Below are positions 1-13,709 of a DNA stretch of 16,327 nucleotides, one piece after another. The DNA is taken from the IMG/VR virus record IMGVR_UViG_2645728010_000001. One strand, 5' to 3'. A model generated the notes under the pieces. That model was given only the letters and a program-made list of their open reading frames with translations. It did not search any database and had not been told where the DNA came from. A program made the position numbers and the translations under genes. Within the stretch, counting starts at the first letter, position 1. Every line of letters starts with the position of its first letter. The DNA comes from a virus (lineage: Duplodnaviria; Heunggongvirae; Uroviricota; Caudoviricetes).

Positions 1-228
1 TTCAACTTCTCTCATTAGTTAGTGTGGCTTTTAGTCAAGTAAGATGACGTCTTGGTCTCGCTGATGCCTGGCGCTCAATCCAGCGATCAATTTCTTCCAG
101 GTTGTAAAAGCATGGACTGTTATCCCATGGCATACCGTCATGAGCGACATGCTTATATTCCCTTCCTTCCATAAACGATTTTTCCCGGGCCTTTTTTAAC
201 GTACCTTTTTTTATTCCTTTCAGCGCAA

Positions 229-735
229 TTAACTGCTCTTCGGATACATGGCGTTAACTTCTGGCATTTTCATCAACGCTTCAACGATATGTCCGTCGAA
301 TGTTGCCATGTCTTCCTGCAACAATTCCTGTGCGCTAATAACCATATCAACGGTGATGTTTTCACATGTGTCGAACTTAACCATGACAGCGTTCTGTACT
401 TCAGGGGCCAGCTTGTCAAAAGTGACGTTCATCGGATCGGATTCAGTCTCAACCGGGACAAAAGAAGCAGACTCCTCATCCCAGCGGTTTTCCTGCATAT
501 ATTCAGCATCCCATGAATCGAGGGCAGGGCGGGGTATGCCAGGTTTATCCTCGCAGACAATAAATTTATAAGCGCAGTCCTGAGCAGCCGGATAATGTTC
601 CAGGAACTGCCAGTGAAATTTTGCTCGAGCACGGCGTTCGTCGCCAGCTTCAATGGCTGTGGCTACAGCCACAGCGCCTTCTTCCCTTGTTGCCAGTTCG
701 TCAGGAATAGCGGCGCAAATAAAGACTTTACTCAT
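229..735 (-). CDS. hypothetical protein, distal gene of the dicB operon (ydfE-like position)
   Basis: 168-aa ORF, same strand and downstream of ydfD/dicB; balanced composition; plus-strand ORFs overlapping it look like shadows. Product not recognised. Confidence 0.5.
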   Translation of the reverse strand: MSKVFICAAIPDELATREEGAVAVATAIEAGDERRARAKFHWQFLEHYPAAQDCAYKFIVCEDKPGIPRPALDSWDAEYMQENRWDEESASFVPVETESDPMNVTFDKLAPEVQNAVMVKFDTCENITVDMVISAQELLQEDMATFDGHIVEALMKMPEVNAMYPKSS

Positions 736-828
736 TTTGTTTTAACCTCATGACAGATTTAAGGATGAACAAATCCCTGCCATTGCTGGCATATAAGAAT
801 GAAACCGGATATTTATTACGGAACTGTT

Positions 829-1020
829 TTAAAGACCTGCCGGGATTTCGATATTATCCTGGTGAATAACTTTATCGACCGGGTAACAGTTACCGGGAAT
901 TTTCTGTTCGGTTGCTGCAGTCATACACTCCTGCATTGTCCTGTGAACACTGTCTGCAATATCAACTGGCTCTCCGGAAACAAGAAAAACTGTCAGAACA
1001 AGCGCAAATGCTGAATTCAT
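829..1020 (-). CDS. ydfD: YdfD-like small protein (63 aa; K-12 YdfD reported as lysis-inducing)
   Basis: Internal ATG (MNSAFALVLTVFLVSGEP...) overlaps the dicB stop in an ATGA arrangement (translational coupling); 63 aa matches Qin YdfD size and position directly after dicB. Confidence 0.6.
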   Translation of the reverse strand: MNSAFALVLTVFLVSGEPVDIADSVHRTMQECMTAATEQKIPGNCYPVDKVIHQDNIEIPAGL

Positions 1021-1205
1021 TGTGTACATCCTTTTGGCATCAGACGTAAACGAGCCAGCATTGAAACAATGCATATTTTATTTAATAGCTCCCGTTCTTG
1101 TTTTCTCTTGTTAATGGCATCTTCAGTAAATACAGGGTTACTGATAGTGACACCAATTTCAAAACAACCTTCAGACGTATTAACGTTTGGTAATAACGTT
1201 TTCAT
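1017..1205 (-). CDS. dicB: cell division inhibitor DicB (MinC-interacting)
   Basis: 62-aa product MKTLLPNVNTSEGCFEIGVTISNPVFTEDAINKRKQERELLNKICIVSMLARLRLMPKGCTQ matches recalled DicB essentially end to end; lies about 175 nt downstream of dicF as in Qin. Confidence 0.85.
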   Translation of the reverse strand: MKTLLPNVNTSEGCFEIGVTISNPVFTEDAINKRKQERELLNKICIVSMLARLRLMPKGCTQ

Positions 1206-1379
1206 TATCGCGTCCTCAACAATGAATTTTGTGATGCAGTGCCTGGTGCCTCCAGGTGACGTTAACCAGTTAACAATTAACGCCGGATACAGAGAATCCA
1301 CCCATAACACTGTTTTTGGTTTTAACTGTTCCGCGTGCGCTTAGCCGCATTCACCGCATCACAAAATTCACTTTAAAAA

Positions 1380-1432
1380 CGGCGGCAGAGCAGTCACGGA
1401 GTAAAACTGATACCGCCAAACGTCACCAGAAA
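1380..1432 (-). ncRNA. dicF: DicF sRNA (ftsZ-targeting antisense RNA) with 3' hairpin and U-tract
   Basis: Minus-strand sequence UUUCUGGUGACGUUUGGCGGUAUCAGUUUUACUCCGUGACUGCUCUGCCGCC followed by UUUUU matches recalled 53-nt DicF; position between ydfC-like gene and dicB. Ends approximate. Confidence 0.8.
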
Positions 1433-1707
1433 ATTGATAACAGAGGGCGTTGCAGCGGGGTTGTCACTTAAGCGTATGGTCAACCTGACAACTCGGTGTC
1501 CTCAACGGGGAAGGAATAACCCCGCCATACTTACCGCCGCGCCATTTCGCGGGTTGCCACAACCGGAAGCGCACGGTCGAATTAAATTTAACGACACCGT
1601 ACAGTGAGACGAACTTCGCCGTGCGCTTTCGTGTTGTGTGCCTGCTTTTAACCACGTCAGGCGAGGTGGTATCCTTCTTATCCCGAATAACCAAGAAGGA
1701 AATCTAT

Positions 1708-1908
1708 ATGACTAAAGAAGAATTTGTCTCTTATATTTTTGATAAAACGGTTGAAATGTATGCCGCTACTTACGGGTCCTGTAATCCTCTGAATAAACCA
1801 GAGGGGAAAGATGATTTCGACAAAATTTACCGCTTCTTGGAGGACCGCTATATCAAAAGGTTAGAGGACGCAGGGATCAAATCCCCAGTGAAGTCACCAT
1901 TGTCCTGA
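1708..1908 (+). CDS. hypothetical 66-aa protein encoded antisense to the dicB operon
   Basis: ATG preceded by strong RBS (AAGAAGGAAAT, about 6 nt spacing); protein-like composition (MTKEEFVSYIFDKTVEMYAATYG...); 3' end overlaps the 3' end of the convergent 125-aa gene by about 30 nt. Confidence 0.35.
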   Translation: MTKEEFVSYIFDKTVEMYAATYGSCNPLNKPEGKDDFDKIYRFLEDRYIKRLEDAGIKSPVKSPLS

Positions 1909-2254
1909 GAACTTGCAGGACGTCATGATCGTAACTTCCATCCAAACCGCGACGGCAAATTGCTTCTCGTATTACCGGAAGCAGTTCGCTGGAAATCTCG
2001 GTGCATATTTCACCTGATAATACGCCTGGCTCAAGTGAGAATATTGGTGAACTTACGGTCTTGGTCTCGACAGTTTCAGAGTCAGTGCCAACATTATAAA
2101 GCTCAACGAAAGCGGTCTTGATTTTCCGGGCCAGATCTTTTGCTGGCTCGCTTGCAATATCTTTCCCGATTTCTCGCAGCACAGAATGCAATGTATGAGC
2201 TGCTGTTTTCTGTACATCAGACGGTAAATCTTTAAATTCCATCGTCAGCCTCAT
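1877..2254 (-). CDS. hypothetical protein, dicB-operon member (ydfB/ydfC-like position)
   Basis: 125-aa ORF on the operon strand; start overlaps stop of upstream small ORF (ATGA); alternative start MEFKDL at about 2242. Confidence 0.55.
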   Translation of the reverse strand: MRLTMEFKDLPSDVQKTAAHTLHSVLREIGKDIASEPAKDLARKIKTAFVELYNVGTDSETVETKTVSSPIFSLEPGVLSGEICTEISSELLPVIREAICRRGLDGSYDHDVLQVLRTMVTSLGI

Positions 2255-2406
2255 CAGTCAGTGTTTCTGGCTAACCAGCAACGCGCGCCAGATTCGGTTT
2301 TAAACGTTTTGCTTTTGGTATATGTCATCGCGGTGAACGTACCGTCCTGGTTGGGGAACACGCCACATACCAGAGATTCGCTGTTGCCAAGATCGATAGT
2401 ATCCAT
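2254..2406 (-). CDS. small protein, first gene of dicB operon (ydfA-like position)
   Basis: 50-aa ORF from ATG (MDTIDLGNSES...) with GAGG-type RBS; sits directly downstream of the operator palindrome at 2521-2538. Confidence 0.4.
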   Translation of the reverse strand: MDTIDLGNSESLVCGVFPNQDGTFTAMTYTKSKTFKTESGARCWLARNTD

Positions 2407-2520
2407 GCTGACCTCATTTCCCCTTAACGCCGGGGTAGCGGAACTGTTTGCTGAGAACACCGTGCGGTGTCTTGATGGAAAGTAATTTAGAATAACCTAA
2501 CATGAGAGGCAAGTGTTTTT

Positions 2521-2538
2521 TGTTAGATTGATCTAACA
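2521..2538. promoter_or_regulatory. palindromic operator TGTTAGA-N4-TCTAACA in dicB-operon control region (probable DicA site)
   Basis: Inverted repeat tgttagattgatctaaca, extended by flanking T5/A5, between the dicA stop and ydfA-like start; same half-sites as the site at 3032-3049. Confidence 0.5.
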
Positions 2539-2574
2539 AAAAGGGTGGGCGCAACTAATCACTTGAAAAGAATG

Positions 2575-2982
2575 TTATTTTATTGATTTATTTTTACGCG
2601 CTTTAAGCATTTCTTCGAAGAGTTTGTTGAAGTTTTCTACTCTTGCGCGCATTTCAGACAGCAAGGCTTCCTGCTCGGAAGATGGAAGAGCATCGAATAA
2701 TTCGATCAATTCTTTGTGGTTGGGAGTTAGCTCTGTTTCCACATGAAGTTCTTGTGCAGGCACTGGTGCCTTGTCTTCGTCACCAAACATTAGCCATGTA
2801 GGTGAGCACTTCAGAGCATCCGCTAAAGCAAACAATCGTTTTCCGACTGGCTGGGTTTCGTCTCTTTCCCATTGTGAAATTGTGACGTGAGCAACTCCAG
2901 CGAGGCGCGCAGCTTCTCGTTGTGTTAAGCGTAATTCTTTTCGTCGCGCCAGAACTCGCTGGCCTAGGGTTCTTGTATCCAT
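2575..2982 (-). CDS. dicA: DicA-like XRE-family HTH repressor (prophage immunity/division control)
   Basis: 135 aa; N-terminal HTH (LRLTQREAARLAGVAHVTISQWERDET), SPTWLMFGDEDK and C-terminal MRARVENFNKLFEEMLKARK segments match recalled DicA; divergent from a Cro-like gene. Confidence 0.85.
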   Translation of the reverse strand: MDTRTLGQRVLARRKELRLTQREAARLAGVAHVTISQWERDETQPVGKRLFALADALKCSPTWLMFGDEDKAPVPAQELHVETELTPNHKELIELFDALPSSEQEALLSEMRARVENFNKLFEEMLKARKNKSIK

Positions 2983-3004
2983 AGTTAGGTAATTCTAATT
3001 TTTC

Positions 3005-3049
3005 TTGACTTAGGTATCCCGCGCACAATAATGTTAGAAAAGTCTAACA
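3005..3049 (+). promoter_or_regulatory. dicC-type promoter (-35 TTGACT, 16-nt spacer, -10 AATAAT) overlapped by operator TGTTAGA-N4-TCTAACA
   Basis: Hexamers read directly; palindrome tgttagaaaagtctaaca at 3032-3049 overlaps -10/+1; GAGGGGG RBS and ATG follow. Confidence 0.5.
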
Positions 3050-3062
3050 AGAGGGGGCTTTG

Positions 3063-3290
3063 ATGCTTAAAGTTGACGCAATTACTTTTTTTGGCAGCAA
3101 AACAAAGCTTGCCAATGCCGCAGGAGTGAGACTGGCAAGTGTTGCTGCTTGGGGGATACTGGTTCCTGAAGGTCGCGCGATGCGTCTACAGGAGGCATCT
3201 GGCGGGGAGCTTCAGTATGATCCCAAAGTTTATGACGAATATCGTAAGACGAAGCGGGCGGGGCGGTTGAACAATGAAAATCACTCCTGA
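3063..3290 (+). CDS. dicC: DicC/Cro-like small DNA-binding regulator
   Basis: 75-aa ORF divergent from dicA-like gene with shared operators; size and organisation match DicC; my sequence recollection of DicC is imperfect. Confidence 0.6.
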   Translation: MLKVDAITFFGSKTKLANAAGVRLASVAAWGILVPEGRAMRLQEASGGELQYDPKVYDEYRKTKRAGRLNNENHS

Positions 3291-3795
3291 ACAGGCTCGT
3301 GAGGCTCTGGATGCCTGGATATGTCGACCAGGAATGACACAGGAGCAGGCGACGATATTAATCACTGAAGCATTCTGGGCTTTGAAAGAGCGCCCGAACA
3401 TCGATGTTCAGCGTGTCACATATGAAGGTGGCGCGGTTGATCAGCGAGCGCTTAGCGTTAATCGAGTGAAGATATTCGAACGCTGGAAGGCTATCGACAC
3501 CAGGGATAAGCGTGAAAAGTTCACAGCGCTAGTGCCTGCAATTATGGAGGCTATCCGGATTAGTGATTTCAGGTTGTATCGTGAGATCAGTGATGGAAAA
3601 AGTATTACGTACATGATCGCCGGGTTAAATAAAGAATATGGCGATGTGGTGGAATCCGGACTGCTTTTTGCAGATCCTGCCGTTGTAGATCGTGAAACTG
3701 ACGAACTTATAGAAAAAGCAATTGCTTTCAAGCTTGCGTATCGACAGCAATACCAACAAAAAGCTGGATGGAATTATGAGTCTTCTTTTTGCTGA
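3274..3795 (+). CDS. hypothetical early-region protein (possibly YdaT-like, a CII-type regulator)
   Basis: 173-aa ORF overlapping the 3' end of the cro-like gene and the 5' end of the replication gene; assignment to YdaT is by position only. Confidence 0.45.
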   Translation: MKITPEQAREALDAWICRPGMTQEQATILITEAFWALKERPNIDVQRVTYEGGAVDQRALSVNRVKIFERWKAIDTRDKREKFTALVPAIMEAIRISDFRLYREISDGKSITYMIAGLNKEYGDVVESGLLFADPAVVDRETDELIEKAIAFKLAYRQQYQQKAGWNYESSFC

Positions 3796-4741
3796 ACGCC
3801 CACTGGTTATAAACACGCAGCTGGCAATGAAAATCGGCTTAAACGAAGCCATTGTTTTGCAACAACTGCACTACTGGTTGAGAGATACCAACTCCGGTAT
3901 GGAATGTGATGGTGTTCGCTGGATTTATAACACAACGGAACAATGGCTGGAACAGTTCCCATTCTGGTCAGAGTCAACGTTAAAGCGCGCGTTTGCAAGT
4001 CTGAAAACGCTGGGGCTTTTGCGTTGTGAAAAGCTCAATAAATCAAAGCGCGATATGACCAATTTCTACACGATCAACTATGGGAGCGAGCTTTTAGATG
4101 GTGGCAAATTGAACGAATCCATCGGTTCAAAATGCGCCGCTCCATCAGGTCAAAATGACACGATGGAAGAGGTCAAAATGAAACGCTCCATTGGTTCAAA
4201 ACGATCCAATGTCATCGGGTCAAAATGGCCTGATGATCTTACAGAGAATACAACAGAGATTACTACAGAGAATAAAAACACTTTTCGTCCGGAAGCTTCG
4301 CAACCGGACCCGCAGACGACTGAACAGGATTTTTTAACCCGGAACTCCGACGCGGTTGTGTTTAGTGCGAAAAAACGCCAGTGGGGTAGCAGGGAGGATT
4401 TGGCGTGTGCGCAGTGGATCTGGGGGCGGATCGTGGGTCTCTACGAACAGGCAGCCAGTGATGATGGCGAGATCATGCGACCAAAAGAGCCTAACTGGAC
4501 TGCCTGGGCCAATGACGTGCGCACAATGCGGATGCTGGATGGCAGAAGCCACAGACAAATTTGCGAAATGTTTGGTCGGGTTCAGCGAGATCCATTCTGG
4601 GTAAAAAACATCATGAGCCCGTCAAAGCTCCGCGAAAAATGGGACGAACTGGTCATCCGCCTGGGACGTTCACCTGTACAGCGTTGTGTTAATCATATTT
4701 CTGAACCGGATACAGAAATTCCGCCTGGTTTCAGAGGATAA
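3776..4741 (+). CDS. phage replication initiation protein (lambda O-like organisation, iterons inside the gene)
   Basis: 322 aa from ATG 3776 (ORF open from 3722); central IGSK-encoding region coincides with five DNA iterons; located after the cro/CII-like genes. Confidence 0.65.
   Translation: MSLLFAERPLVINTQLAMKIGLNEAIVLQQLHYWLRDTNSGMECDGVRWIYNTTEQWLEQFPFWSESTLKRAFASLKTLGLLRCEKLNKSKRDMTNFYTINYGSELLDGGKLNESIGSKCAAPSGQNDTMEEVKMKRSIGSKRSNVIGSKWPDDLTENTTEITTENKNTFRPEASQPDPQTTEQDFLTRNSDAVVFSAKKRQWGSREDLACAQWIWGRIVGLYEQAASDDGEIMRPKEPNWTAWANDVRTMRMLDGRSHRQICEMFGRVQRDPFWVKNIMSPSKLREKWDELVIRLGRSPVQRCVNHISEPDTEIPPGFRG
4121..4280. repeat. putative replication origin: five iterons GGT(T)CAAAA(T/C)G at 23-24 bp spacing plus adjacent A+T-rich ACAGAGAATA repeats
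   Basis: Direct repeats begin near 4124, 4148, 4171, 4194 and 4218; followed by acagagaatacaacagagattactacagagaataaaaaca; lies inside the initiator ORF as lambda ori lies in O. Confidence 0.55.
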
Positions 4742-4781
4742 GTGTTGATTTCAGGTCATGAGGTAATTTTAAGGGGGAGTT

Positions 4782-5141
4782 GTGGCAAAAGTTTTTACAC
4801 AAGAAGAGCGGGAAAAAATTAAAGGGCAGGTGGTGGAACTCGTGCGCCAGAGCGGTCGTGAGACGTTACGGCAACTGGAAGCTAAAACAGGTGCGACTAG
4901 ATATCTGATGAGCGTTCTTGCCAGAGAGCTGGTAGCCAGTGGCGATGTATACAACTCCGGCTACGGGTTATTCCCGTCTGAACAGGCGCGTAAGGACTGG
5001 CAAAACGCCCGCAAAAAACTCTCGAGGGCAAAGGTGAAGAAACCTGCTGTGGTTGATCCGGACCTTATCTGGTCATTATACGTCAAGAGCAGGAGATTTA
5101 TGTGCTGGTTCTCAAATGCACGCTGGCTATTGTGGCTGTAA
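4782..5141 (+). CDS. hypothetical protein (119 aa), possible remnant of a replication-module gene
   Basis: GTG start after AAGGGGGAG RBS; N-terminal HTH-like segment; hydrophobic C-terminal tail; no recognised family. Confidence 0.4.
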   Translation: MAKVFTQEEREKIKGQVVELVRQSGRETLRQLEAKTGATRYLMSVLARELVASGDVYNSGYGLFPSEQARKDWQNARKKLSRAKVKKPAVVDPDLIWSLYVKSRRFMCWFSNARWLLWL

Positions 5142-5345
5142 TGGCAATTTATTGTCTTGTTATTGTTCTTATGGATCACCTTTCTGATTGATTTCATATT
5201 GGAGAGGTAACGGTAGTTAAGTAGAATGGCTGCGGGTGCTTGAGGCTATCTGCCTCGGGCATGAACACCAACGGCAGATAGAGAAAAGCCCCAGTTAACA
5301 TTACGCGTCCTGCAAGACGCTTAACATTAATCTGAGGCCAATTTC

Positions 5346-5558
5346 ATGCTAGACACATGTAGGTTAGCCTCTTACGTGCCGAAAGGCAAGGAGAAGCAGG
5401 CTATGAAGCAGCAAAAGGCGATGTTAATCGCCCTGATCGTCATCTGTTTAACCGTCATAGTGACGGCACTGGTAACGAGGAAAGACCTCTGCGAGGTACG
5501 AATCCGAACCGGCCAGACGGAGGTCGCTGTCTTCACAGCTTACGAACCTGAGGAGTAA
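5346..5558 (+). CDS. mok: Mok-like in-frame upstream extension of hok (modulator of killing)
   Basis: 70-aa ORF in frame with hok from ATG 5346 (MLDTCRLASYVPKGKEKQA-MKQQ...), the same architecture as recalled MokC/HokC. Confidence 0.45.
   Translation: MLDTCRLASYVPKGKEKQAMKQQKAMLIALIVICLTVIVTALVTRKDLCEVRIRTGQTEVAVFTAYEPEE
5403..5558 (+). CDS. hokD: Hok/Gef-family type I toxin (HokD/RelF-like)
   Basis: 51 aa MKQQKAMLIALIVICLTVIVTALVTRKDLCEVRIRTGQTEVAVFTAYEPEE; AAGGAG RBS 7 nt upstream; single TM helix plus conserved C-terminal Hok segment. Confidence 0.85.
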   Translation: MKQQKAMLIALIVICLTVIVTALVTRKDLCEVRIRTGQTEVAVFTAYEPEE

Positions 5559-5626
5559 GAGACCCGGCGAGGGAGAAATCCCTCGCCACCTCTGATGTGG
5601 CAGGCATCCTCAACGCACTCGCACTT

Positions 5627-5655
5627 AACCCGCTTCGGCGGGTTTTTGTTTTTAT
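5627..5655 (+). terminator. rho-independent terminator downstream of hok
   Basis: aacccgc-ttcg-gcgggtt hairpin followed by tttgtttttatttt; an additional perfect 8-bp hairpin (ggcgaggg...ccctcgcc) at 5567-5587 may be the hok mRNA 3' fold-back element. Confidence 0.6.
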
Positions 5656-5666
5656 TTTCAACGCGT

Positions 5667-5696
5667 TTGAAGTTCTGGACGGTGCCGGAATAGAAT
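5667..5696 (+). promoter_or_regulatory. candidate sigma70 promoter for the rem-like gene (-35 TTGAAG, 18-nt spacer, -10 TAGAAT)
   Basis: Hexamers read directly, about 80 nt upstream of the rem-like ATG. Confidence 0.35.
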
Positions 5697-5774
5697 CAAA
5701 AATACTTAAGTAGCGCGCAGGGATAAGAGGGATGGTCCCTTAAAGGGGAGAGCTAATTATCCGGAAGGATTCTG

Positions 5775-6026
5775 ATGATGAACATCGAAGAACTGCGTAA
5801 AAATTTTTGTGAAGATGGCCTCTATGCTGTGTGCGTTGAAAATGGAAATCTTGTTAGTCATTACCGCATTATGTGTTTGCGAAAGAATGGGGCTGCGTTA
5901 ATTAATTTTGTGGATGGTCGAGTGACAGACGGATTTATCTTGCGCGAAGGTGAGTTTGTCACTTCATTACAGGCACTGAAAGAGATCGGAATAAAAGCAG
6001 GCTTTTCAGCTTTTGCAGAAGAATAA
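5775..6026 (+). CDS. rem: Rem-like small protein (function unknown)
   Basis: 83-aa ORF with GGAAGGA RBS; size and position (hok -> rem -> ydfU -> Q) match Qin order. Confidence 0.5.
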   Translation: MMNIEELRKNFCEDGLYAVCVENGNLVSHYRIMCLRKNGAALINFVDGRVTDGFILREGEFVTSLQALKEIGIKAGFSAFAEE

Positions 6027-6092
6027 ACTCATCTACAATCTTGCGCGGGGCTGAACTCCCGCTGAGTAACACCGTGCCACCGGAGAAAACCG

Positions 6093-6371
6093 ATGGCACG
6101 CAACGTAAAATATTACAATTCTGATAATTCGCCCGTTCTTGTCTGCACGCACGAGCGGTATTCTCACGCATTCAAGTCTGAATGGTTCCAACACCCTCCA
6201 TGCACTGAAGAGCAGGCTGAATGGATAATTCAGTGTTACCGCAGGCGCGGATACGAGGTTAAGAAAGCCCTTAGTCTCGACTACCGTCACTGGATAATCT
6301 CAGTCAGATTGCCTTACTCCGAACGCCCACCGCGTCCGTCCCGTACATTCCAGCAACGCATCTGGAGGTAA
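6093..6371 (+). CDS. hypothetical protein (92 aa), possibly N-terminal part of a split ydfU-like gene
   Basis: ATG with GGAGAAAA RBS; stop TAA lies 1 nt before the GTG of the next ORF (GGAGG between). Confidence 0.45.
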   Translation: MARNVKYYNSDNSPVLVCTHERYSHAFKSEWFQHPPCTEEQAEWIIQCYRRRGYEVKKALSLDYRHWIISVRLPYSERPPRPSRTFQQRIWR

Positions 6372-6372
6372 C

Positions 6373-7023
6373 GTGCGGGTATTACTTCGACCTGTTCTGG
6401 TACCGGAACTTGGGCTGGTGGTCGTTAAGCCGGGCCGTGAATCCATGCCGGTATTCCACAATACCCGGGTATCCTGGTGGGCGGTCCGCAATCAGCTGGC
6501 GGACGCGCTACCGGAAGCGGTATTACGTCGCTCGCTGGGATTACCAGCGGAAAAAATCTGCTCGGTGTACCGCGAAAGCGACATCGTACCGGGAGAGCAG
6601 ACCGCCACCAGCATATTGAAACAGCGCACAAAAAATCTTGCACCGTTGCCTCACGCCCACCAGCAACAAAACCCATCACAGGAAAAGACGGTGGTAAGCA
6701 TCACCGTTGATCCAGAGTCTCCGGAATCTTTCATGAAGCTGCCTAAACGTCACCGGTGGGTTAAGGAGAAATACACACGCTGGGTTAAGACACAGCCGTG
6801 TGCTTGCTGCGGTATGCCAGCCGACGATCCGCATCATCTGATTGGTCACGGGCAGGGCGGAATGGGAACCAAAGCACATGATCTCTTTGTTTTGCCTTTG
6901 TGCAGAAAGCATCACGACGAGTTGCATACGGATACCGTGGCATTTGAAGAGAAGTATGGCTCCCAACTGGAGCTGATTTTTCGATTTATCGATCGCGCGC
7001 TGGCAATTGGTGTGCTGGCCTAA
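6373..7023 (+). CDS. DUF968-type protein with C-terminal Cys/His (HNH-like) motif (ydfU-like)
   Basis: 216 aa; C-terminal CACCG...DPHH...H...CRKHHDELH cluster; immediately upstream of Q as ydfU is in Qin. Confidence 0.55.
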
Positions 7024-7040
7024 TTTTGTGGAGTAAGTTG

Positions 7041-7418
7041 ATGCGTGATATTCAGATGGTTCTTGAGCGTTGGGGGGCATGGGCGGCTAATAATCATGAA
7101 GATGTGACCTGGTCGTCCATTGCCGCCGGTTTTAAGGGATTAATTCCTTCAAAAGTAAGATCTCGTCCGCAATGCTGTGACGATGACGCGATGATCATTT
7201 GTGAATGTATGGCTCGCCTGAAAAAAAACAACAGCGATTTACATGATTTATTGGTGGACTATTATGTCGGCGGCATGACTTTTATGGCGCTTGCACGTAA
7301 GCATGGGCGATCTGATTGTTGGGTTGGCAGGATGCTCCAGAAAGCTGAGGGCGTAGTGGAGGGCATGCTGATGGTGTTGGATCTCCGATTGGAGATGGAT
7401 GCTGATTGTTCGAAATAA
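7041..7418 (+). CDS. late-gene antiterminator Q (short, QuuD/phage-82-like type)
   Basis: 125 aa from ATG 7041 with GGAG RBS ([24 protein letters not shown]...); cysteine-rich centre; followed by promoter-like region and intrinsic terminator as PR'/tR'. Confidence 0.8.
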
Positions 7419-7516
7419 TTAAAGGAAAAGTTGCTGTCTGATTTTCATTAGTCTAACATTTTAAATGTTGGAATCGCAACGTAGTTATTATCATATAACA
7501 GCTTATTTCCTGATTT

Positions 7517-7547
7517 AGCCAGCCTCCCCAAAGGCTGGTTTTTTTCT
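7517..7547 (+). terminator. intrinsic terminator downstream of Q (tR'-like)
   Basis: ccagcct-ccccaa-aggctgg stem-loop followed by an 8-T run; oriented for the plus strand. Confidence 0.65.
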
Positions 7548-7573
7548 AATAAGTATCATTTCGGGTGGGGATT

Positions 7574-8098
7574 TTATTGTTTAACCCATAATAGTTCATT
7601 GACATTGAATCCCAACTTTTGAGCGGTACGCACATAGTCTGCTTTTACATTATCTGGAATAGTTTGGGTCCTTGCCAGAATCCATAGGTATTCTCTGTTC
7701 GGACCACTGACAAGAGCATACTTATACTCATCATCCAGTTTGATTACATTATAGCCACCATAGAAGGGGCCAAAAAACGAAACTTTCAACGCTGCAGTTT
7801 TAGTATCTCCAGTAAAGTATGCTTTACCTTCGCTCTCGCTCCATTTGTTTTTCGTTGGATCGTATCCACGGTTAAGTACGCGAATCCCTCCGTCGTTCCG
7901 TTTTTCATAAGTAGCGCTGACCTGTTCCAGACCACGTTCGAACCAGTTCTCGAGGCGAGCTATTTCATACCATTTTCCGAGGTAGCGGTTGGCGTCAAAA
8001 TTTGTAATCGGCTGCACACCTTTAGGTGGTGTCGGAGCCTTACATGCTATAAGAGTGAAAGAGAGTGCAATGCCAGTCAACACAGGCCATAACTTCAT
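7574..8098 (-). CDS. outer-membrane lipocalin lipoprotein, Blc family (diverged)
   Basis: 174 aa; signal peptide with lipobox LIAC; lipocalin motifs NFDANRYLGKWYEIARLENWFERGLE, FGPFYGGYNVI, YLWILART; AGGA RBS. Confidence 0.85.
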   Translation of the reverse strand: MKLWPVLTGIALSFTLIACKAPTPPKGVQPITNFDANRYLGKWYEIARLENWFERGLEQVSATYEKRNDGGIRVLNRGYDPTKNKWSESEGKAYFTGDTKTAALKVSFFGPFYGGYNVIKLDDEYKYALVSGPNREYLWILARTQTIPDNVKADYVRTAQKLGFNVNELLWVKQ

Positions 8099-8290
8099 AA
8101 TAAATCCTGTACTTTTGATAGTTGAGAGTAAGTATGAAAGATAGATGAGTACGACCGATCACTTAAAGAACTTTCCTACTATATTAGGAATAGTCAATAA
8201 CAGAAAAATTGTCAGTGATGAAGCCAGAAAGGCAATTTAGTCCGTGCACTACAAAGTTTATGTGTTAATGAATTAGTCAAGGGGGAGGAA

Positions 8291-8440
8291 ATGATAAAAA
8301 AACCTGTGATTGGGATCAGCGGTTGTTTGGGCGGTTCTGCTGTTCGTTTTGATGGTGGTCACAAAAGAGATGACTTTTTAATGGACAAATTAGTGGAATG
8401 GGTAACATTCAGACCAGTATGTCCGGAAATGGCTATATGA
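8291..8440 (+). pseudogene. 5' fragment of a DUF523-type gene truncated by IS3
   Basis: Strong RBS GGGGGAGG; MIKKPVIGISGCLGGSAVRFDGGHK resembles DUF523 N-termini; ORF stops in a TGA supplied by the IS3 terminal repeat; 49 aa where about 150 is expected. Confidence 0.45.
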
Positions 8441-8467
8441 TCCTACCCACGTAATATGGACACAGGC

Positions 8468-9334
8468 CTAAGCGAGGTTCTGGTTTTCAAATTGTTCCGG
8501 ACTGAGGCCGCCACACCAACTGTGCCGCCGCCACCGATTGTAATCACATTCGATATAATTAAACACCGTTGCCCGCATTATTTCCCGGCTGATAAAGTGT
8601 TCTCCATGGATACATTCCACTTTCAGCGAATGAAAGAAGCTTTCCACGCAGGCATTATCGTAGCAGCAACCTTTTGCGCTCATACTTCCACGCAGATTAT
8701 GCCGCTTCAGTTGCGCCTGATAATCTGCTGAACAGTACTGGCCTCCACGGTCCGTGTGAACGATAACGTTCCGGGGCCTCTTACGCCGCCACAGCGCCAT
8801 CTGCAGGGCATCGCAGGCCAGTTGCGCCGTCATGCGTGGCGACATTGACCAGCCAATAACGGCACGTGACCACAGGTCAATGACCACTGCCAGATACAGC
8901 CAGCCTTCATCTGTACGTAAGTACGTGATGTCTCCTGCCCACTTCTGGTTCGGGCCACTGGCGTAAAAATCCTGCTCCAACAGATTTTCTGACACAGGCA
9001 GGCCGTGTGCGCGGTAGCTGACCGGGCTGAACTTCCGGGAGGCCTTTGCCCTCAGTCCCTGACGGCGCAGGCTTGCCGCCACGGTTTTTACGTTAAAGGG
9101 GTAACCCTGAGCACGCAGTTCATCCGTCAGGCGTGGGGCACCGTAACGCTGTTTTGACCGGGTAAAAGCCGCGAGGACAACGCTGTCGCAGTGTTGGCGG
9201 AACTGCTGACGCGTGCTTATCCTTGTCCGCCGCTGACACCACGTATACCAGCCGCTGCGGGCCACCCGGAGCACGCGGCACATTGCTTTGATGCTGAACT
9301 CAGCCTGATGTTTTTCAATAAAGACATACTTCAT
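8468..9334 (-). CDS. insF: IS3 transposase OrfB (DDE integrase-like)
   Basis: 288 aa; matches recalled IS3 OrfB; overlaps orfA in ATGA arrangement. Confidence 0.9.
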
Positions 9335-9630
9335 TTCAGGCGCTTCGCGAAGTATGTCGCGGCCTTTTGGAGGATAGCCAGCTCTTCATCCCGTTCTGCC
9401 AGCTGGCGTTTGAGACGTGCAATCTCGGTAGACATCTCCAGTTCACGTTCAGAAGACGTCTGCTGATTTTGCTGTTTACTGCGCCAGTTGTAGAGTTGTG
9501 ATTCATACAGGCTGAGTTCACGGGCTGCGGCAGTAACACCGATGCGTTCAGCAAGCTTCAGGGCTTCACTGCGAAATTCAGGCGAATGCTGTTTACGGGG
9601 TTTTTTACTGGTTGATACTGTTTTTGTCAT
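9331..9630 (-). CDS. insE: IS3 transposase OrfA (HTH)
   Basis: 99 aa from ATG ([31 protein letters not shown]...); the ORF track's longer start is an upstream GTG. Confidence 0.9.
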
Positions 9631-9663
9631 GTGAGTCACCTCTGACTGAGAGTTTACTCACTT

Positions 9664-11592
9664 AACAGCGCACAGGCGGCAGCGGCCTCGCAGACTGCAT
9701 CGGCAAACTCCGCGACAGCAGCTAAAAAATCAGAAAACAACGCGAAAAATAGCGAGACAGCAGCAAAGACGAGCGAAACCAACGCAAAGTCCAGCCAGGC
9801 GGCAGCGAAAACAAGCGAAACGAATGCCAAAACCAGTGAAACTGCGGCGAAAAGCAGTCAGGCTGCAGCAGCCGAAAGCGAGAGTGCGGCAGCCGGTTCT
9901 GCGACTTCAGCAGCTGGATCAGCAACTGCTGCAGCTAACAGCCAGAAAGCAGCGAAGACGAGCGAAACTAACGCAAAGTCCAGCCAGACGGCAGCGAAGA
10001 CCAGCGAAACGAATGCCAAAGCCAGCGAAACTGCGGCGAAAAACAGTCAGGATGCAGCGGCCCAAAGCGAGAGTGCCGCAGCTGGTTCTGCAAGTGCGGC
10101 GGCTTCTTCTGCCACTGCATCAGCCAACAGTCAAAAAGCTGCAAAAACCAGTGAAACCAACGCAAAGGCGAGCGAGACTGCGGCGGCTAACTCGGCGAAA
10201 GCATCCGCTGCAAGCCAGACGGCTGCAAAAGCAAGTGAAGACGCAGCCAGAGAGTATGCAAGCCAGGCTGCGGAGCCGTATAAACAAGTTTTGCAGCCGC
10301 TTCCCGATGTGTGGATACCGTTTAACGATTCACTGGATATGCTTGCTGGCTTTTCGCCTGGTTATAAGCAAATAACTGTAGGTGATGATGTTATTAAAAT
10401 GCCATCCGATAAGGTTGTTAGCTTCAAACGCGCATCAGGTGCAACATACATTAATAAATCAGGAGTATTAACCGTTGCTGAAGTTGACGAACCGCGATTT
10501 GAACGAGAAGGTTTGCTGATTGAAGGACAAAGAACCAACTATCATCTTAATTCACTTACGCCATCTAAGTGGGGAGCTACAACAAGTGTAACTATAACAG
10601 AAAGTGGTGTTGATGAGTTTGGCTTTACTTATGGGCGGTTTCAAATAAAGGACGAAAAAATTGGGACAAATACGACAATGAATATCGCTGCGGTTTCAGG
10701 AGGAAGAGGTGTCGATGTTACTGGAACTGAAAAGTATGTTACAACATCATGTCGTGTAAAAAGCGATAGTGCTAATATACAATGTCGTATAAGATTTGAA
10801 AGATATGACGGGTCCGCATATTTTTATCTGGCAGATGCATATCTTAATATAACAGATATGTCCATTAGGAAAACGGGAGGAGGGGCTGCAAGAATAACCG
10901 CCCGAGCGGAGAAAGAATCTAATGGATGGATTTATTTCGAGGTTACATATCAATCTGAAGCTATTGATAATATGGTTGGCTCTCAGATCCAAATTGCTCC
11001 ACCTGTTTCACCTGGAACTTATTTGGGCGGGGAATATTTGGATGTTACGACACCACAATTTGAAGGCGGCTCATGCGCATCATCTTTTATCATTTCCGAT
11101 ACAGTTGCATCAACGCGAGCAAGCGATATTGTTACATTGCCTTGTAAAAATAACATGGCCAGCAAACCTTTAACCTGCATGGTTGAAGTGAATAAAAATT
11201 GGTCTATAGCACCAAATTCCGCGCCTAGAATTTATGATATAACAGGATTTAAAACAAAAGACGACGCTTTTGTTTTTGCATTCAGAAATACAGCAGGTAG
11301 TGTAGGAACTCCATATGTTCAATTTGGTAATCCAATATCATTTCCACCTGGAAATTACCCAAGAAAGATTATCGCTGTATATAGAATAAAAAGCGATGGC
11401 AAGTTTCAGGCTGGCTGCAATGGGGTTTTATCAACACCAGCATCAACAACGTGGAAGAGTGTTAGTGGTGCTACAGGTATAAGGATTGGAGGCCAGACTA
11501 CAGCCGGCTTACGTCATTTATTTGGTTATATCAGGAATTTTAGAATATGGCATAAAGAATTAACCGATGCGCAAATGGGAGAGATAATATAA
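9664..11592 (+). pseudogene. side tail fibre gene stf, 5'-truncated at the IS3 junction
   Basis: Open frame without start codon begins at the IS3 boundary; N-part is repetitive (KTSETNAKASETAAK-type repeats), then EPYKQVLQPLPDVWIPFNDSLDM junction and a low-GC C-terminal domain ending GLRHLFGYIRNFRIWHKELTDAQMGEII. Confidence 0.8.
9766..10200 (+). repeat. tandem 189-bp (63-codon) repeats with 45-bp sub-repeats inside stf
   Basis: Near-identical units starting about 9766, 9955 and 10144; boundaries approximate. Confidence 0.6.
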
Positions 11593-11873
11593 TGCGAGAT
11601 TTAATTATCAAATTCACAGACAAGGCCGACTTTTCGGCCTTTATGAAGAGTGCTGGCTATTATGATGACGAGTCGATGCAGGATGATATTCTTATTGACG
11701 TGATAGGTAACGTGTACAAAGAAACCGGAGAACTTACTGAAGATGGCGAGCCGGTATGTGTTAAGGAAGACGGATATTTTGTAAACGTGCGCATCATTAA
11801 TGATGCAAAAAAATCGTCAATATTCGATAAATACGCGGTTGTTGTTGAGCATCAACTTCGTGGCTGGATGTGA
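11592..11873 (+). CDS. hypothetical acidic 93-aa protein (possible tail-fibre chaperone or accessory)
   Basis: ATG overlaps stf stop (TAATG); no recognised family. Confidence 0.5.
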   Translation: MRDLIIKFTDKADFSAFMKSAGYYDDESMQDDILIDVIGNVYKETGELTEDGEPVCVKEDGYFVNVRIINDAKKSSIFDKYAVVVEHQLRGWM

Positions 11874-11882
11874 GGCAGGAAA

Positions 11883-12587
11883 ATGGCTACATCGACAGTA
11901 ATTCCAGGAGATATCACCAAGCTAAAGGGGGATGTCAGTAAAGCTAAGGAAGATATTTCATCAATTAGCAGAAAAGTATCAACGCTTCAGACTGAGATGA
12001 CCAGTGCAAAGCAGGATATCAGCTCCAGATACACAAAAACTGAAGTTGATAATAAGCTGAAAAACAAAGTGGAAGTGAACGATCTGGAAAGTGGTCGTTA
12101 TGGCGGAGATTTTTATCCACTGACAGGTCGTGAAGCGTTTTATTTATGGAATTTGGCCACGACTACAGCGGCGGCAAACCTTTATCTTAATCCTGACCCT
12201 GCAATTTCGTCTGTGCTGCGGTCAACATCGTCTATCCGCTATAAACATTCAGTAGAGACAATAGATTCAGAGCACGCCGATCTCATTTTCAGGATGCGCC
12301 CTGTGTGGTACAGGTCGCAATGCGAAAATGACAGGCGTGACTGGGGATTCTACGGATTGATTGCCGAGGAAGTAGGAGAAATTGCTCCTCAGTTTGTACA
12401 CTGGCGACCAGCTAACGAAGATGATGCTCCTGAAGCTATTTCCAGCAATGGCCTTGTTGCCGAAGGTGTAATGTACGAACGTCTGGTTGTTCCACTGATT
12501 CACCATATCCAGAAACTGACTGAAAGAGTTGATGAACTTGAGTCAGAATTAAAGTTGTTATTAACTTCCCGAAGCGATATTAGATAA
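11883..12587 (+). CDS. short fibre-like protein: N-terminal coiled coil plus C-terminal intramolecular-chaperone (peptidase S74-like) domain
   Basis: 234 aa; motifs SSIRYKHSVETID, GLIAEEVGEIAPQFV, NGLVAEGVMYERLVVPLIHHIQKLTERVDELESEL resemble the autocleaving C-terminal chaperone domain of phage fibres and tailspikes. Confidence 0.55.
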   Translation: MATSTVIPGDITKLKGDVSKAKEDISSISRKVSTLQTEMTSAKQDISSRYTKTEVDNKLKNKVEVNDLESGRYGGDFYPLTGREAFYLWNLATTTAAANLYLNPDPAISSVLRSTSSIRYKHSVETIDSEHADLIFRMRPVWYRSQCENDRRDWGFYGLIAEEVGEIAPQFVHWRPANEDDAPEAISSNGLVAEGVMYERLVVPLIHHIQKLTERVDELESELKLLLTSRSDIR

Positions 12588-12597
12588 AGGAGGAGTA

Positions 12598-12891
12598 ATG
12601 GATATAACACCTTTTCTTCATGCGCTTTGTGCTGTGGCTGCGCAGACACTGGTTGGTCTTTTTACCGGAAACTGGGCTTATGGGGCGATAGCTGGTTGTA
12701 CGTTCTTCATTGCGCGTGAACACACCCAGGCAGAATATCGCTGGATTGAAATGTTCGGGCATGGCAAGCGGATTAACATGCCGTGGTGGGGCGGTTTTGA
12801 TCCGCGTGTTTGGGATGTGGCAAGCCTGATGGATTTTGCTGTGCCGGTGGTGGCGTGTCTGCTGATCTGGCTGTTGGTTAATCGTGGGTGA
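12598..12891 (+). CDS. small membrane protein (97 aa, about 2-3 TM segments), function unknown
   Basis: Strong RBS AAGGAGG; hydrophobic segments AVAAQTLVGLFTGNWAYGAIAGCTFFIA and FAVPVVACLLIWLLV. Confidence 0.55.
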   Translation: MDITPFLHALCAVAAQTLVGLFTGNWAYGAIAGCTFFIAREHTQAEYRWIEMFGHGKRINMPWWGGFDPRVWDVASLMDFAVPVVACLLIWLLVNRG

Positions 12892-12901
12892 AAAAAGGTG
12901 A

Positions 12902-13021
12902 GCTGTATATGCAACGGAGGAAGAAACCCCGTTGCTGGAAGCCAGGAAAAAGTATCGGGTGTTGCTGAACCGTGTTGATACGTCAACTGCACAGGATATT
13001 GAATGGCCAGCACTGCCGTAG
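12902..13021 (+). pseudogene. orphan 3' end of a tail fibre assembly gene (tfa remnant)
   Basis: Start-less open frame ...[31 protein letters not shown] resembles the conserved Tfa C-terminus, just upstream of pin where tfa lies in Rac/Qin. Confidence 0.45.
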
Positions 13022-13118
13022 GGTAAAACATATAAATTCTATAATTAGATGTATCTTTCCATTTACGGCAAGGAAGGGGGCTTGGAAGACGTAAAGCATC
13101 TCACACCGAGATTATTTT

Positions 13119-13709
13119 TTATATGTCAGGTGTCTGAAGTTTTGCTTTGGCTCTTAAAATGGTTTGCCGCGAGGTTTTGAATTCCCGGGCAATGGCACTT
13201 ATACTTACACCTGACTTAATCCGTTCGAATACCACCTGTTTCTGTTCTTCATTTAACACAGGTGGTCGACCAAAACGTTTCCCTGCGCCCCGGGCTCTTA
13301 CTATCCCGGAATGAGTGCGTTCAAGTAAAAGGTCTCGTTCAAATTCAGCGACTGCTGAAATTACTTGCATCATCATTTTTCCTGTTGGACTGGTCAGGTC
13401 AATGCCCCCCAATGCTAAGCAATGCACTCTGATACCTGTTTCGGTCAGTTGTTCCACTGTTTTCCTGATATCCATTGCATTACAACCAAGGCGATCCAAT
13501 TTTGTCACAATCAATTGATCACCACATTTCAGGCGAGCAAGCAACCGGTTAAAACCAGGACGCTCACTGGTTGCTGCTGAGCCGCTAATGTGTTCTTCGA
13601 TTATTTGCTGAGGTTTGATTTTAAAACCTGCACTTTCGATTTCCCGGCGTTGATTTTCGGTGGTCTGATCCAGCGTTGATATCCGACAGTAAGCAAAAAT
13701 TCGAGACAT
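13119..13709 (-). CDS. pin: serine-recombinase DNA invertase (Pin/Hin/Gin/Cin family)
   Basis: 196 aa; [12 protein letters not shown]...with catalytic-Ser context (CRIST), resolvase fold motifs and C-terminal HTH ([18 protein letters not shown]). Confidence 0.9.

What the first reader, a model, noticed from the sequence alone, without database searches (positions are those of the whole stretch)
5142..5660. Intact mok-hok module with its own leader and 3' structures
In K-12 the identical-looking HokD (RelF) is the third gene of relBEF without mok. Here relBE are absent and hok is preceded by a 260-bp leader with an in-frame mok extension, and followed by a perfect 8-bp hairpin and a separate terminator. 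That is the architecture of autonomous hok/sok loci, so a functional type I toxin-antitoxin with an antisense Sok RNA (expected on the minus strand around 5300-5400) is plausible.
Basis: partly seen in the sequence, partly recalled or inferred. Interest (0 to 1): 0.45.

Follow-up and report, generated by a model that had tools for sequence, protein, structure and literature searches.

The report
Complete hok/mok/sok toxin-antitoxin cassette
This is an ordinary, complete copy of the long-known hok/mok/sok RNA-controlled toxin-antitoxin cassette, sitting in a defective lambda-like (Qin-type) prophage of an E. coli B-type genome; the K-12 relBE-hokD arrangement is the rearranged exception.

Summary
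Window 5199-5654 carries a full hok/mok/sok type I toxin-antitoxin cassette. It has a hok promoter and a 169-nt leader that matches Rfam RF01794 at 115 bits (gathering score 59). It has an in-frame mok ORF (5346-5558) and a hok CDS (5403-5558) whose product is identical to K-12 HokD. After the CDS come a 9-bp GC hairpin, an fbi element and a terminator.

Folding reproduces the textbook switch. The full-length mRNA pairs tac with fbi and ucb with the mok SD. The 3'-shortened mRNA pairs tac with ucb and the mok SD with dcb.

The antisense Sok promoter (TTGCCT-17-TAACCT, minus strand 5389-5361) is identical in sequence to the promoter that was mutated in the hokW-sokW study of prophage Sp5. That locus is 94% identical to this one.

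K-12 homology begins only at 5389, so relBE replaced the whole regulatory leader there.

The leader occurs in 4287 of 5426 complete E. coli genomes. The K-12 junction occurs in 1165. Activity in this strain (transcripts, toxicity, killing after loss) is inferred, not shown.

The parts
5199..5227 (+). hok promoter: -35 TTGGAG (5199-5204, 17-nt spacer) or TGGAGA (5200-5205, 16-nt spacer); -10 TAGAAT (5222-5227)
   Evidence: The promoter scan found TGGAGA-16-TAGAAT. The -10 lies 7 nt before the first position of the Rfam model. GTAGAAT is the commonest -10 among about 110 related loci. The -35 is a minority variant; the majority has TTGCGG.
5234..5650 (+). full-length hok (mok-hok) mRNA, about 417 nt, predicted
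   Evidence: The 5' end comes from the Rfam model start and the 3' end from the terminator. MFE is -170.3 kcal/mol, z=-7.4. The ends are inferred, not mapped.
5234..5245 (+). tac (translational activator element), GGGUGCUUGAGG
   Evidence: It pairs with fbi in the full-length fold and with ucb in the truncated fold. It is conserved across loci, with compensated changes.
5286..5292 (+). ucb / anti-SD (AAGCCCC)
   Evidence: It pairs with the mok SD in the full-length fold and with tac in the fold truncated at 5595-5600. It is the first helix of the Rfam consensus structure.
5334..5337 (+). mok Shine-Dalgarno sequence, GAGG
   Evidence: It lies 8 nt before the ATG at 5346. It is sequestered by ucb in the closed fold and paired with dcb at the base of the target hairpin in the open fold.
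5346..5558 (+). mok ORF (70 codons), in frame with hok and sharing its stop
   Evidence: ORF list. The same arrangement occurs in 89 of about 111 related loci and in the annotated K-12 mokC/hokC pair.
5349..5355 (+). sokT target-hairpin loop, containing CUAG (a YUNR-type motif)
   Evidence: This is the loop of the mok SD/dcb hairpin in the open fold. That YUNR loops speed Sok binding is established knowledge for R1 and was not tested here.
5367..5371 (+). dcb (GCCUC)
   Evidence: It pairs with 5334-5338 in the truncated fold and forms a helix in the Rfam alignment.
5361..5389 (-). Sok promoter: -35 TTGCCT (5389-5384), 17-nt spacer, -10 TAACCT (5366-5361)
   Evidence: Read from the minus strand. 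This is the majority variant, found in 57 loci. It is identical to the hokW-sokW locus, and the 'promoter-less' mutagenic primer YO-421 changes exactly these -10 bases (PMC8621323; mapping). The simple consensus scan did not find it.
5278..5354 (-). predicted Sok antisense RNA, about 77 nt: a single-stranded 5' tail over the mok start, then a long terminator hairpin and UUUUCUCU
   Evidence: The ends were transferred from the annotated K-12 sokC, which overlaps the mokC start by 9 nt. The +1 G at 5354 lies 7 nt after the -10. The fold is -30.5 kcal/mol, z=-5.25. No transcript was observed.
5389..5394 (+). hok Shine-Dalgarno sequence, AGGAGA
   Evidence: Read from the sequence. This is the only upstream element kept in K-12, where similarity starts at 5389.
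5403..5558 (+). hok CDS (HokD, 51 aa)
   Evidence: Identical to K-12 HokD. Pfam PF01848 at 82.9 bits. Annotated as hokD in BL21(DE3).
5566..5587 (+). 9-bp GC-rich hairpin with a GAAA loop; probable 3' end-protecting stem of the processed (truncated) mRNA
   Evidence: Folds. The A5570/U5583 pair is G/C in hokW, a compensated change. The role is inferred from the R1 study, in which the last stem-loop of Tr-hok protects against exonucleases (PMC9841398).
5608..5620 (+). fbi (fold-back inhibition element), CCUCAAcGCACUC
   Evidence: It makes 12 pairs with tac, with one bulged C. It sits at the same distance after the stop codon in diverged loci, and changes are compensated at tac positions 4, 9, 10, 11 and 12. 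The window carries a rare C5619T change that gives a G.U pair.
5627..5654 (+). intrinsic terminator of the hok mRNA (7-bp stem, UUCG loop, T run)
   Evidence: Terminator scan and fold.

Best explanation
The region is a structurally complete member of the hok/mok/sok type I toxin-antitoxin family. It is the intact form of the hokD locus and a close relative of hokW-sokW. It is carried as a self-contained cassette of about 440 bp (roughly 5214-5653) between the replication genes and rem in a defective Qin-type lambdoid prophage of an E. coli B-lineage genome.

Inferred mechanism, as established for plasmid R1:
1. A weak constitutive promoter makes a stable mRNA of about 417 nt. Its 5' end (tac) pairs with its 3' end (fbi), and ucb covers the mok SD. 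In this form the mRNA is neither translated nor bound by Sok.
2. Slow 3' trimming back to the 9-bp hairpin removes fbi.
3. tac then pairs with ucb. The mok SD moves into the target hairpin, which makes the mRNA both translatable and accessible to Sok.
4. An unstable antisense Sok RNA of about 77 nt, made from TTGCCT-17-TAACCT on the other strand, pairs over the mok start. This blocks mok translation, and with it the coupled hok translation, and triggers cleavage of the duplex.
5. If Sok synthesis stops, Hok is made and damages the inner membrane.

What is shown here: the presence, integrity and conservation of all elements, and the two alternative folds. What is inferred: the transcripts, the processing, the toxicity in this context and the biological role.
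For: - **RNA family match.** Rfam RF01794 hits 5234-5408 at 115.3 bits against a gathering score of 59. This is comparable to K-12 hokC (118.3), a Rac-phage hok (111.1), hokW (113.5) and an R1-type plasmid hok (87.2).
- **Toxin.** HokD is identical to the K-12 protein. That protein was toxic when expressed (bioRxiv 10.1101/2025.08.07.668861). It belongs to Pfam HOK_GEF.
- **Folds.** The MFE folds give tac/fbi plus ucb/SDmok for 5234-5650, and tac/ucb plus SDmok/dcb for 5234-5595 or 5234-5600. This matches the published model (PMC9841398).
- **Covariation.** The tac/fbi pairing recurs in 28 distinct tac/fbi combinations from Escherichia, Kluyvera, Photorhabdus, Erwinia and others. Both-sided changes occur at five positions.
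- **Closest tested relative.** The locus is 94% identical over 416 nt to hokW-sokW. That locus was shown to be a type I TA pair in which mutating the sokW -10 unleashes toxicity (PMC8621323). All its primers map exactly to Stx2 phage I (L139), and the Sok promoter region is identical in the window.
- **No disruptions.** None of the 24 differences from hokW, and none of the 17 deviations from the family majority, breaks an element.
- **Prevalence.** The leader is kept in 4287 of 5426 complete E. coli genomes.
Against: - No transcript, processing or toxicity data exist for this copy.
- The Sok -10 (TAACCT) matches only 3 of 6 consensus positions, and the generic promoter scan did not call it.
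- The fbi carries a rare C5619T change, shared by 2 of 69 close relatives. It weakens the tac/fbi duplex from about -21.5 to -18.5 kcal/mol.
- The hok -35 is a minority variant.
- Chromosomal hokA, hokB and hokC loci tested earlier did not give post-segregational killing or rifampicin activation (Pedersen & Gerdes 1999, as summarised in bioRxiv 10.1101/2025.08.07.668861).
- With truncation at 5590-5592, the MFE is a different fold of almost equal energy.
Confidence: 0.85

Rival explanations
1. The cassette is structurally intact but phenotypically silent. It is transcribed and kept repressed by Sok, yet it never delivers killing at a useful level. It is a hitch-hiking remnant in a dead prophage, with no post-segregational killing and no physiological role.
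For: - Earlier tests of intact chromosomal hokA (E. coli C), hokB (K-12) and hokC (ECOR24) found no PSK and no rifampicin activation (summarised in bioRxiv 10.1101/2025.08.07.668861).
- The host prophage is defective: frameshifted integrase, truncated exonuclease VIII, an IS3 insertion and truncated tail genes.
- The fbi and the hok -35 are minority variants.
Against: - All elements are conserved without disruption, and helices show compensated changes. This argues for continuing selection on the RNA.
- The 94%-identical hokW-sokW locus is demonstrably active (PMC8621323).
Confidence: 0.25
2. The cassette works as in the best explanation, but its biological role is the one shown for hokW-sokW. 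Sok disappears on prophage induction, and Hok helps lyse the cell and release phage. Plasmid-style addiction is not the role.
For: - hokW-sokW increased Sp5 release about two-fold and needed RecA (PMC8621323).
- The cassette lies inside the early-right transcription unit, with no predicted terminator between the DUF977 gene and the hok leader.
Against: This prophage looks unable to excise or make particles, so such a role would be vestigial here. In Stx2 phage I the cassette sits at a different place in the genome.
Confidence: 0.15
3. The cassette serves the host or the prophage as an abortive-infection or exclusion device against other phages. Infection shuts off transcription, Sok decays, and Hok kills the cell.
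For: R1 hok/sok on a high-copy plasmid reduced T4 plating and plaque size (cited in PMC8621323). The mechanism needs only what is present here.
Against: The large survey found no enrichment of hok near defence systems. The effect is known only for a multicopy plasmid. Nothing was tested for this copy.
Confidence: 0.12
4. The upstream 'leader' and the hairpins are chance features, or a decayed relic around a lone hok ORF, as in K-12.
For: None beyond the weak consensus match of the Sok promoter.
Against: - The Rfam hit has E=4e-26.
- Fold z-scores are -7.4 and -5.3.
- tac/fbi shows covariation.
- No element is disrupted relative to 69 close relatives.
- The K-12 Qin region, searched the same way, gives no RF01794 hit.
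Confidence: 0.02

Closest known systems
hokW-sokW of Sakai prophage 5 / Stx2 phages (Takada et al. 2021, PMC8621323)
   Same: - 94.0% nucleotide identity over window 5215-5630.
- The Rfam score is the same class (113.5 vs 115.3 bits).
- The Sok promoter region is identical.
- The in-frame 70-codon mok is the same.
- The toxin is 47/51 identical.
- Both are prophage-borne.
   Different: - Four C-terminal residues differ (TAYEPEE vs VDYESEK).
- Six substitutions lie around the mok start and the 5' end of Sok; they are cis-complementary by construction.
- fbi pairs as G.U here and as G-C in hokW.
- The cassette sits at a different place in the phage genome.
- hokW-sokW has been tested experimentally; this copy has not.
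hok/sok (parB) of plasmid R1
   Same: - The same set and order of elements.
- The same two-state mRNA fold.
- The Sok promoter is at the homologous position (TTGCGC-17-TATCCT in the R1-type copy L005, against TTGCCT-17-TAACCT here).
- The same Rfam family.
   Different: - Toxin identity is only 23/51.
- There is an insertion of about 18 nt in the Sok terminator hairpin, and a shorter first hairpin.
- This copy is in a chromosomal prophage, not a plasmid.
- PSK is shown for R1 only.
relB-relE-hokD (relF) of E. coli K-12 Qin prophage
   Same: - The Hok protein is identical.
- DNA identity from 5389 to beyond the terminator is 99.3%, and the downstream rem gene is the same.
- Both lie in a Qin-type prophage with DicF and dicB.
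   Different: - K-12 lacks the hok promoter, tac, ucb, the mok start, sokT, dcb and the Sok -10. The breakpoint lies at the edge of the Sok -35.
- K-12 gives no RF01794 hit.
- In K-12, hokD is the third cistron of a type II TA operon.
- The K-12 junction is present in 1165 of 5426 genomes. The intact leader is present in 4287.
hokC(gef)/mokC/sokC of E. coli K-12
   Same: - mok is in frame and shares hok's stop.
- An annotated Sok overlaps the mok start by 9 nt.
- The Rfam score is 118.3 bits.
- Hok is 41/51 identical.
   Different: - Nucleotide identity is about 76%.
- sokC is 59 nt, because the hairpin insertion is absent.
- In K-12 an IS186 lies just downstream of hokC.

Membership tests
hok/mok/sok type I toxin-antitoxin family | Small (about 50 aa) Hok/Gef membrane toxin ORF | tested here: met
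   Pfam PF01848 at 82.9 bits against a cut-off of 22. The product is identical to K-12 HokD.
hok/mok/sok type I toxin-antitoxin family | A structured 5' leader with the tac/ucb helix, the Sok-terminator-complement hairpin, and the SDmok/dcb target hairpin (Rfam RF01794 covariance model) | tested here: met
   115.3 bits against a gathering score of 59, matching the full model 1-157.
hok/mok/sok type I toxin-antitoxin family | A mok reading frame with its own SD that starts upstream of hok and overlaps it | tested here: met
   GAGG at 5334-5337 and ATG at 5346; the ORF runs to 5558. This arrangement is shared by most relatives.
hok/mok/sok type I toxin-antitoxin family | Long-range 5'-3' pairing (tac/fbi) that locks the full-length mRNA | tested here: met
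   The MFE pairs 5234-5245 with 5608-5620. The duplex is -18.5 kcal/mol, and the pairing covaries across relatives.
hok/mok/sok type I toxin-antitoxin family | Alternative open fold after 3' shortening (tac/ucb, with the mok SD released into the target hairpin) | tested here: met
   This is the MFE of 5234-5595 and of 5234-5600. With ends at 5590-5592 a near-isoenergetic different fold wins. The result is computational only.
hok/mok/sok type I toxin-antitoxin family | A cis-encoded antisense Sok gene with its own promoter and terminator, overlapping the mok translation start | tested here: met
   The promoter TTGCCT-17-TAACCT is at the position homologous to the sokW and R1-type promoters, and the terminator hairpin is followed by a U run. 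This is sequence evidence only. The generic scan missed the promoter.
hok/mok/sok type I toxin-antitoxin family | The Sok RNA is made and is unstable, and it represses Hok; Hok kills when Sok is lost | not testable with these tools
   Shown for the 94%-identical hokW-sokW locus (PMC8621323), and toxicity of the identical HokD protein is reported. Not shown for this copy.
hok/mok/sok type I toxin-antitoxin family | 3' exonucleolytic processing of the mRNA to a truncated active form | not testable with these tools
   A suitable 9-bp stop hairpin lies at 5566-5587, between the stop codon and fbi.
relBEF operon (K-12 type hokD) | relE lies immediately upstream and hokD is transcribed as the third cistron without its own leader | tested here: not met
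   The upstream gene is DUF977. Similarity to K-12 begins at 5389.

The most novel reading that the evidence does not exclude
In this clade the mok frame is the hok frame in about 80% of loci, including this one. Translation from the mok start would therefore make a 70-aa, N-terminally extended Hok rather than a separate leader peptide. The least conventional reading still open is that this long isoform is a second active or differently targeted toxin form. In that case the intact cassette would be active in B-lineage laboratory strains (BL21, REL606) and would affect lysis or phage sensitivity there. Nothing here tests this.
Probability: 0.12. Interest if true: 0.3.

Novelty: already known. 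Interest (0 to 1): 0.12.

Why it matters
It matters mainly for correct annotation. RefSeq marks only the hokD CDS here and leaves mok, the leader and the Sok gene unannotated. A reader who knows only K-12 could therefore mistake the normal state for something special. The comparison shows that the K-12 relBE-hokD arrangement is the derived one. It is cut at the edge of the Sok -35 box and is present in about a fifth of complete E. coli genomes. About four fifths carry at least one intact hokD/hokW-type leader. Widely used B strains (BL21, REL606) carry what looks like a working type I toxin-antitoxin module. This could be relevant to lysis or stress phenotypes, but it opens no new question.

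Tried and rejected
- **Promoter scan.** The generic sigma-70 scan did not call any minus-strand promoter. I did not take this as absence, because the site is identical to the experimentally mutated sokW -10 and is the majority variant.
- **hokW in Sp5.** I looked for hokW in the nin region of Sp5 in the Sakai chromosome and it is not there. I used Stx2 phage I (L139) instead and confirmed it as the studied locus by exact primer matches.
- **Literature.** A search for 'sokD' returned only unrelated papers. The Fozo/Storz review PMC2593563 is not held. Pedersen & Gerdes 1999 could be cited only through papers that summarise it.
- **In-frame mok.** I considered that it might be unusual and rejected this. 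It is the majority arrangement and is also how mokC/hokC are annotated in K-12.
- **R1 mok frame.** I could not settle the frame of mok in the original R1 sequence. The R1-type plasmid copy I fetched has it in frame, and the R1 paper does not state it.
- **Inactivating mutations.** I considered that the copy might be inactivated by point mutations, as reported for some K-12 loci. No element is broken.

Full report
**Where the window comes from.** Window 1-13660 is 100% identical to BL21(DE3) NC_012971.2. The 519-bp finding is 100% identical in many B-lineage and C strains. The BL21 annotation shows a defective Qin-type lambdoid prophage next to rspAB. It has a frameshifted integrase, xisR, a truncated exonuclease VIII, ydfD, dicB, a CI/Cro-type pair and YdaT. 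These are followed by a replication-type ORF, a DUF977 gene, hokD, rem, an antiterminator Q, an IS3 and truncated tail-fibre genes. Rfam also finds DicF at 1380-1431 on the minus strand.

**Checking the observation.** The hok CDS is 5403-5558. Its product is identical to K-12 HokD and is a Pfam HOK_GEF protein.
- An ATG at 5346, preceded by GAGG at 5334-5337, opens a 70-codon ORF in the hok frame.
- The upstream gene is DUF977, not relE.
An intrinsic terminator follows at 5627-5644.
- The '260-bp leader' needs correcting. The Rfam model for the hok leader starts at 5234, 7 nt after a TAGAAT -10 at 5222-5227. The 5' UTR is therefore about 169 nt, and 5142-5233 is spacer plus promoter.

**What it is.** Rfam RF01794 is named 'sok', but the model is in fact the sense-strand hok leader ending at the hok AUG. 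It matches 5234-5408 end to end at 115.3 bits (gathering score 59, E=4e-26). The same search gives:

| Locus | Bits |
|---|---|
| K-12 hokC | 118.3 |
| window | 115.3 |
| hokW | 113.5 |
| Rac-phage hok | 111.1 |
| R1-type plasmid hok | 87.2 |
| K-12 Qin region | no hit |

**The two mRNA folds.** Thermodynamic folding of the predicted full-length mRNA (5234-5650; -170.3 kcal/mol, z=-7.4) pairs the 5' end 5234-5245 with 5608-5620. It also pairs AAGCCCC (ucb) with the mok SD. Shortening the RNA to 5595 or 5600 flips it. The 5' end now pairs with ucb (5286-5292), and the mok SD (5334-5338) pairs with dcb (5367-5371). That hairpin's loop (5349-5355) carries CUAG. This is the closed/open switch described for R1 (PMC9841398). 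With ends at 5590-5592, a fold of almost equal energy appears in which the 5' end pairs locally with 5253-5260. This resembles the metastable hairpin described for the nascent RNA.

**Evidence from relatives.** I fetched 53 loci from species-representative genomes and 80 from viral contigs. In 28 distinct tac/fbi combinations the duplex is found about 45-50 nt after the stop codon. Both-sided changes occur at tac positions 4 (U:A to C:G), 9, 10, 11 and 12. Similarity between loci in different prophage backgrounds typically starts at 5214-5222 and ends at 5645-5660. The unit therefore behaves as a discrete cassette of about 440 bp with its own promoter and terminator. mok shares hok's frame and stop in 89 of about 111 loci, and also in the K-12 mokC/hokC annotation. 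The in-frame extension is thus normal.

**The antisense gene.** On the minus strand the sequence reads TTGCCT (5389-5384), a 17-nt spacer, TAACCT (5366-5361), and six more bases to a G at 5354.
- The K-12 sokC annotation starts 9 nt inside mokC. This corresponds to 5354 here.
- Transferring its 3' end gives 5278, so Sok would be about 77 nt.
- The extra 18 nt relative to sokC come from an insertion that lengthens the terminator hairpin.
- The RNA folds into a free 5' tail plus a long hairpin followed by UUUUCUCU (z=-5.25).
- The generic promoter scan did not call this site. However, TTGCCT-17-TAACCT is the majority variant among relatives.
- It is also the very site studied experimentally. In hokW-sokW of prophage Sp5, the 'promoter-less' construct was made with primer YO-421. 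That primer changes TAGGTTAG to CCGGCTCG, which converts the -10 from TAACCT to GAGCCG. The change made the locus toxic, and sokW in trans partly rescued it (PMC8621323).
- All primers from that paper match Stx2 phage I (L139) exactly. The wild-type sequence under YO-421 and under the hokW probe YO-597 is identical in the window.

**Is anything broken?** I compared the window with 69 unique close relatives. It deviates from the majority at 17 positions, and none disrupts an element.
- The only rare change inside an element is C5619T in fbi. It turns the G2-C pair into G.U and takes the duplex from about -21.5 to -18.5 kcal/mol.
- The stop-hairpin difference from hokW (A5570/U5583 against G/C) is compensated.
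- The hok -35 is a minority variant but keeps TTG.

**Relation to K-12.** Similarity to the K-12 relE-hokD-rem region starts at 5389. K-12 keeps only the hok SD, the CDS and the 3' elements. The promoter, tac, ucb, the mok start, the Sok target and the Sok -10 are replaced by relBE and neighbouring genes. This is the 'genetic rearrangement' attributed to Pedersen & Gerdes 1999 (PMC7232551; PMC12214031). The K-12 junction is present in 1165 of 5426 complete E. coli genomes. The intact leader is present in 4287, with a median of two copies.

**How it most likely works, and how sure.**
- *Shown here:* all family-defining sequence and structure elements are present, conserved and able to form the two alternative folds.
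- *Inferred from R1 and hokW-sokW:* constitutive transcription of a locked mRNA, slow 3' trimming, refolding, Sok binding at the mok start, and Hok-mediated membrane damage when Sok is lost.

I put 0.85 on this being a canonical hok/sok cassette that works by this mechanism. The main reservation is that intact chromosomal hokA, hokB and hokC loci gave no post-segregational killing in earlier work. The cassette may therefore be intact yet phenotypically quiet (0.25, not exclusive). Its role is open. It could be addiction to the prophage, a helper of lysis at induction as for hokW, or phage exclusion. In this dead prophage an induction-linked role would be vestigial.

**Novelty.** The family, its mechanism, the truncated nature of K-12 hokD, intact hokD homologues in other strains, the enrichment of hok in prophages and a functional near-identical prophage copy are all published. 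The finding is a correct reading of an ordinary, already known locus.

Noticed in passing
window 1380-1431 (-): A DicF sRNA (Rfam RF00039, 72.5 bits), with dicB and ydfD annotated downstream in the identical BL21 sequence. This marks the prophage as Qin-type.
   Followed up: partly
window 5541-5544 (+): The Tyr47 codon of hokD is UAC followed by G, within the context CUUACGAAC. This is the UACG context in which low-level TadA A-to-I editing of hokD mRNA (Tyr to Cys) has been reported in K-12 (PMC12214031; sequence).
   Followed up: no
window 5619 (+): A rare C-to-T change in fbi, shared by only 2 of 69 close relatives. It replaces the G2-C pair of the tac/fbi lock with G.U. Whether it loosens the lock is untested.
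   Followed up: partly
window 5214-5653: Similarity to hok cassettes in unrelated prophage backgrounds starts and stops at nearly the same points. The unit behaves like a self-contained 'moron' with its own -10 and terminator. The -35 region lies at or beyond the left boundary and varies between backgrounds.
   Followed up: partly
window 5141-5654: No terminator is predicted between the DUF977 gene and the hok leader. The hok terminator (5627-5644) stands in the early-right transcription unit ahead of rem and Q. Read-through from the prophage early promoter and a barrier effect on downstream genes are both possible.
   Followed up: no
window 5667-5696 (+): A promoter-like site, TTGAAG-18-TAGAAT, just after the hok terminator and upstream of rem (5775-6026).
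   Followed up: no
L020, L025, L058: Very short contigs (275 bp, 431 bp and 2995 bp) carry E. coli-type hokD DNA at about 90-96% nucleotide identity to the window. They are filed under Acinetobacter idrijaensis, Xanthomonas pisi and a 'Candidatus Scatousia' MAG. They are probably E. coli contamination or mis-binning.
   Followed up: no
L139 80-168 (+): An Rfam sRNA-Xcc1 hit (69.1 bits, gathering score 53) about 2.4 kb upstream of hokW in Stx2 converting phage I.
   Followed up: no
E. coli genome hits to window 5234-5402: The hok leader, mok and Sok region carries no annotated feature in RefSeq genomes ('none' under every listed match), although it is present in 4287 of 5426 genomes.
   Followed up: partly
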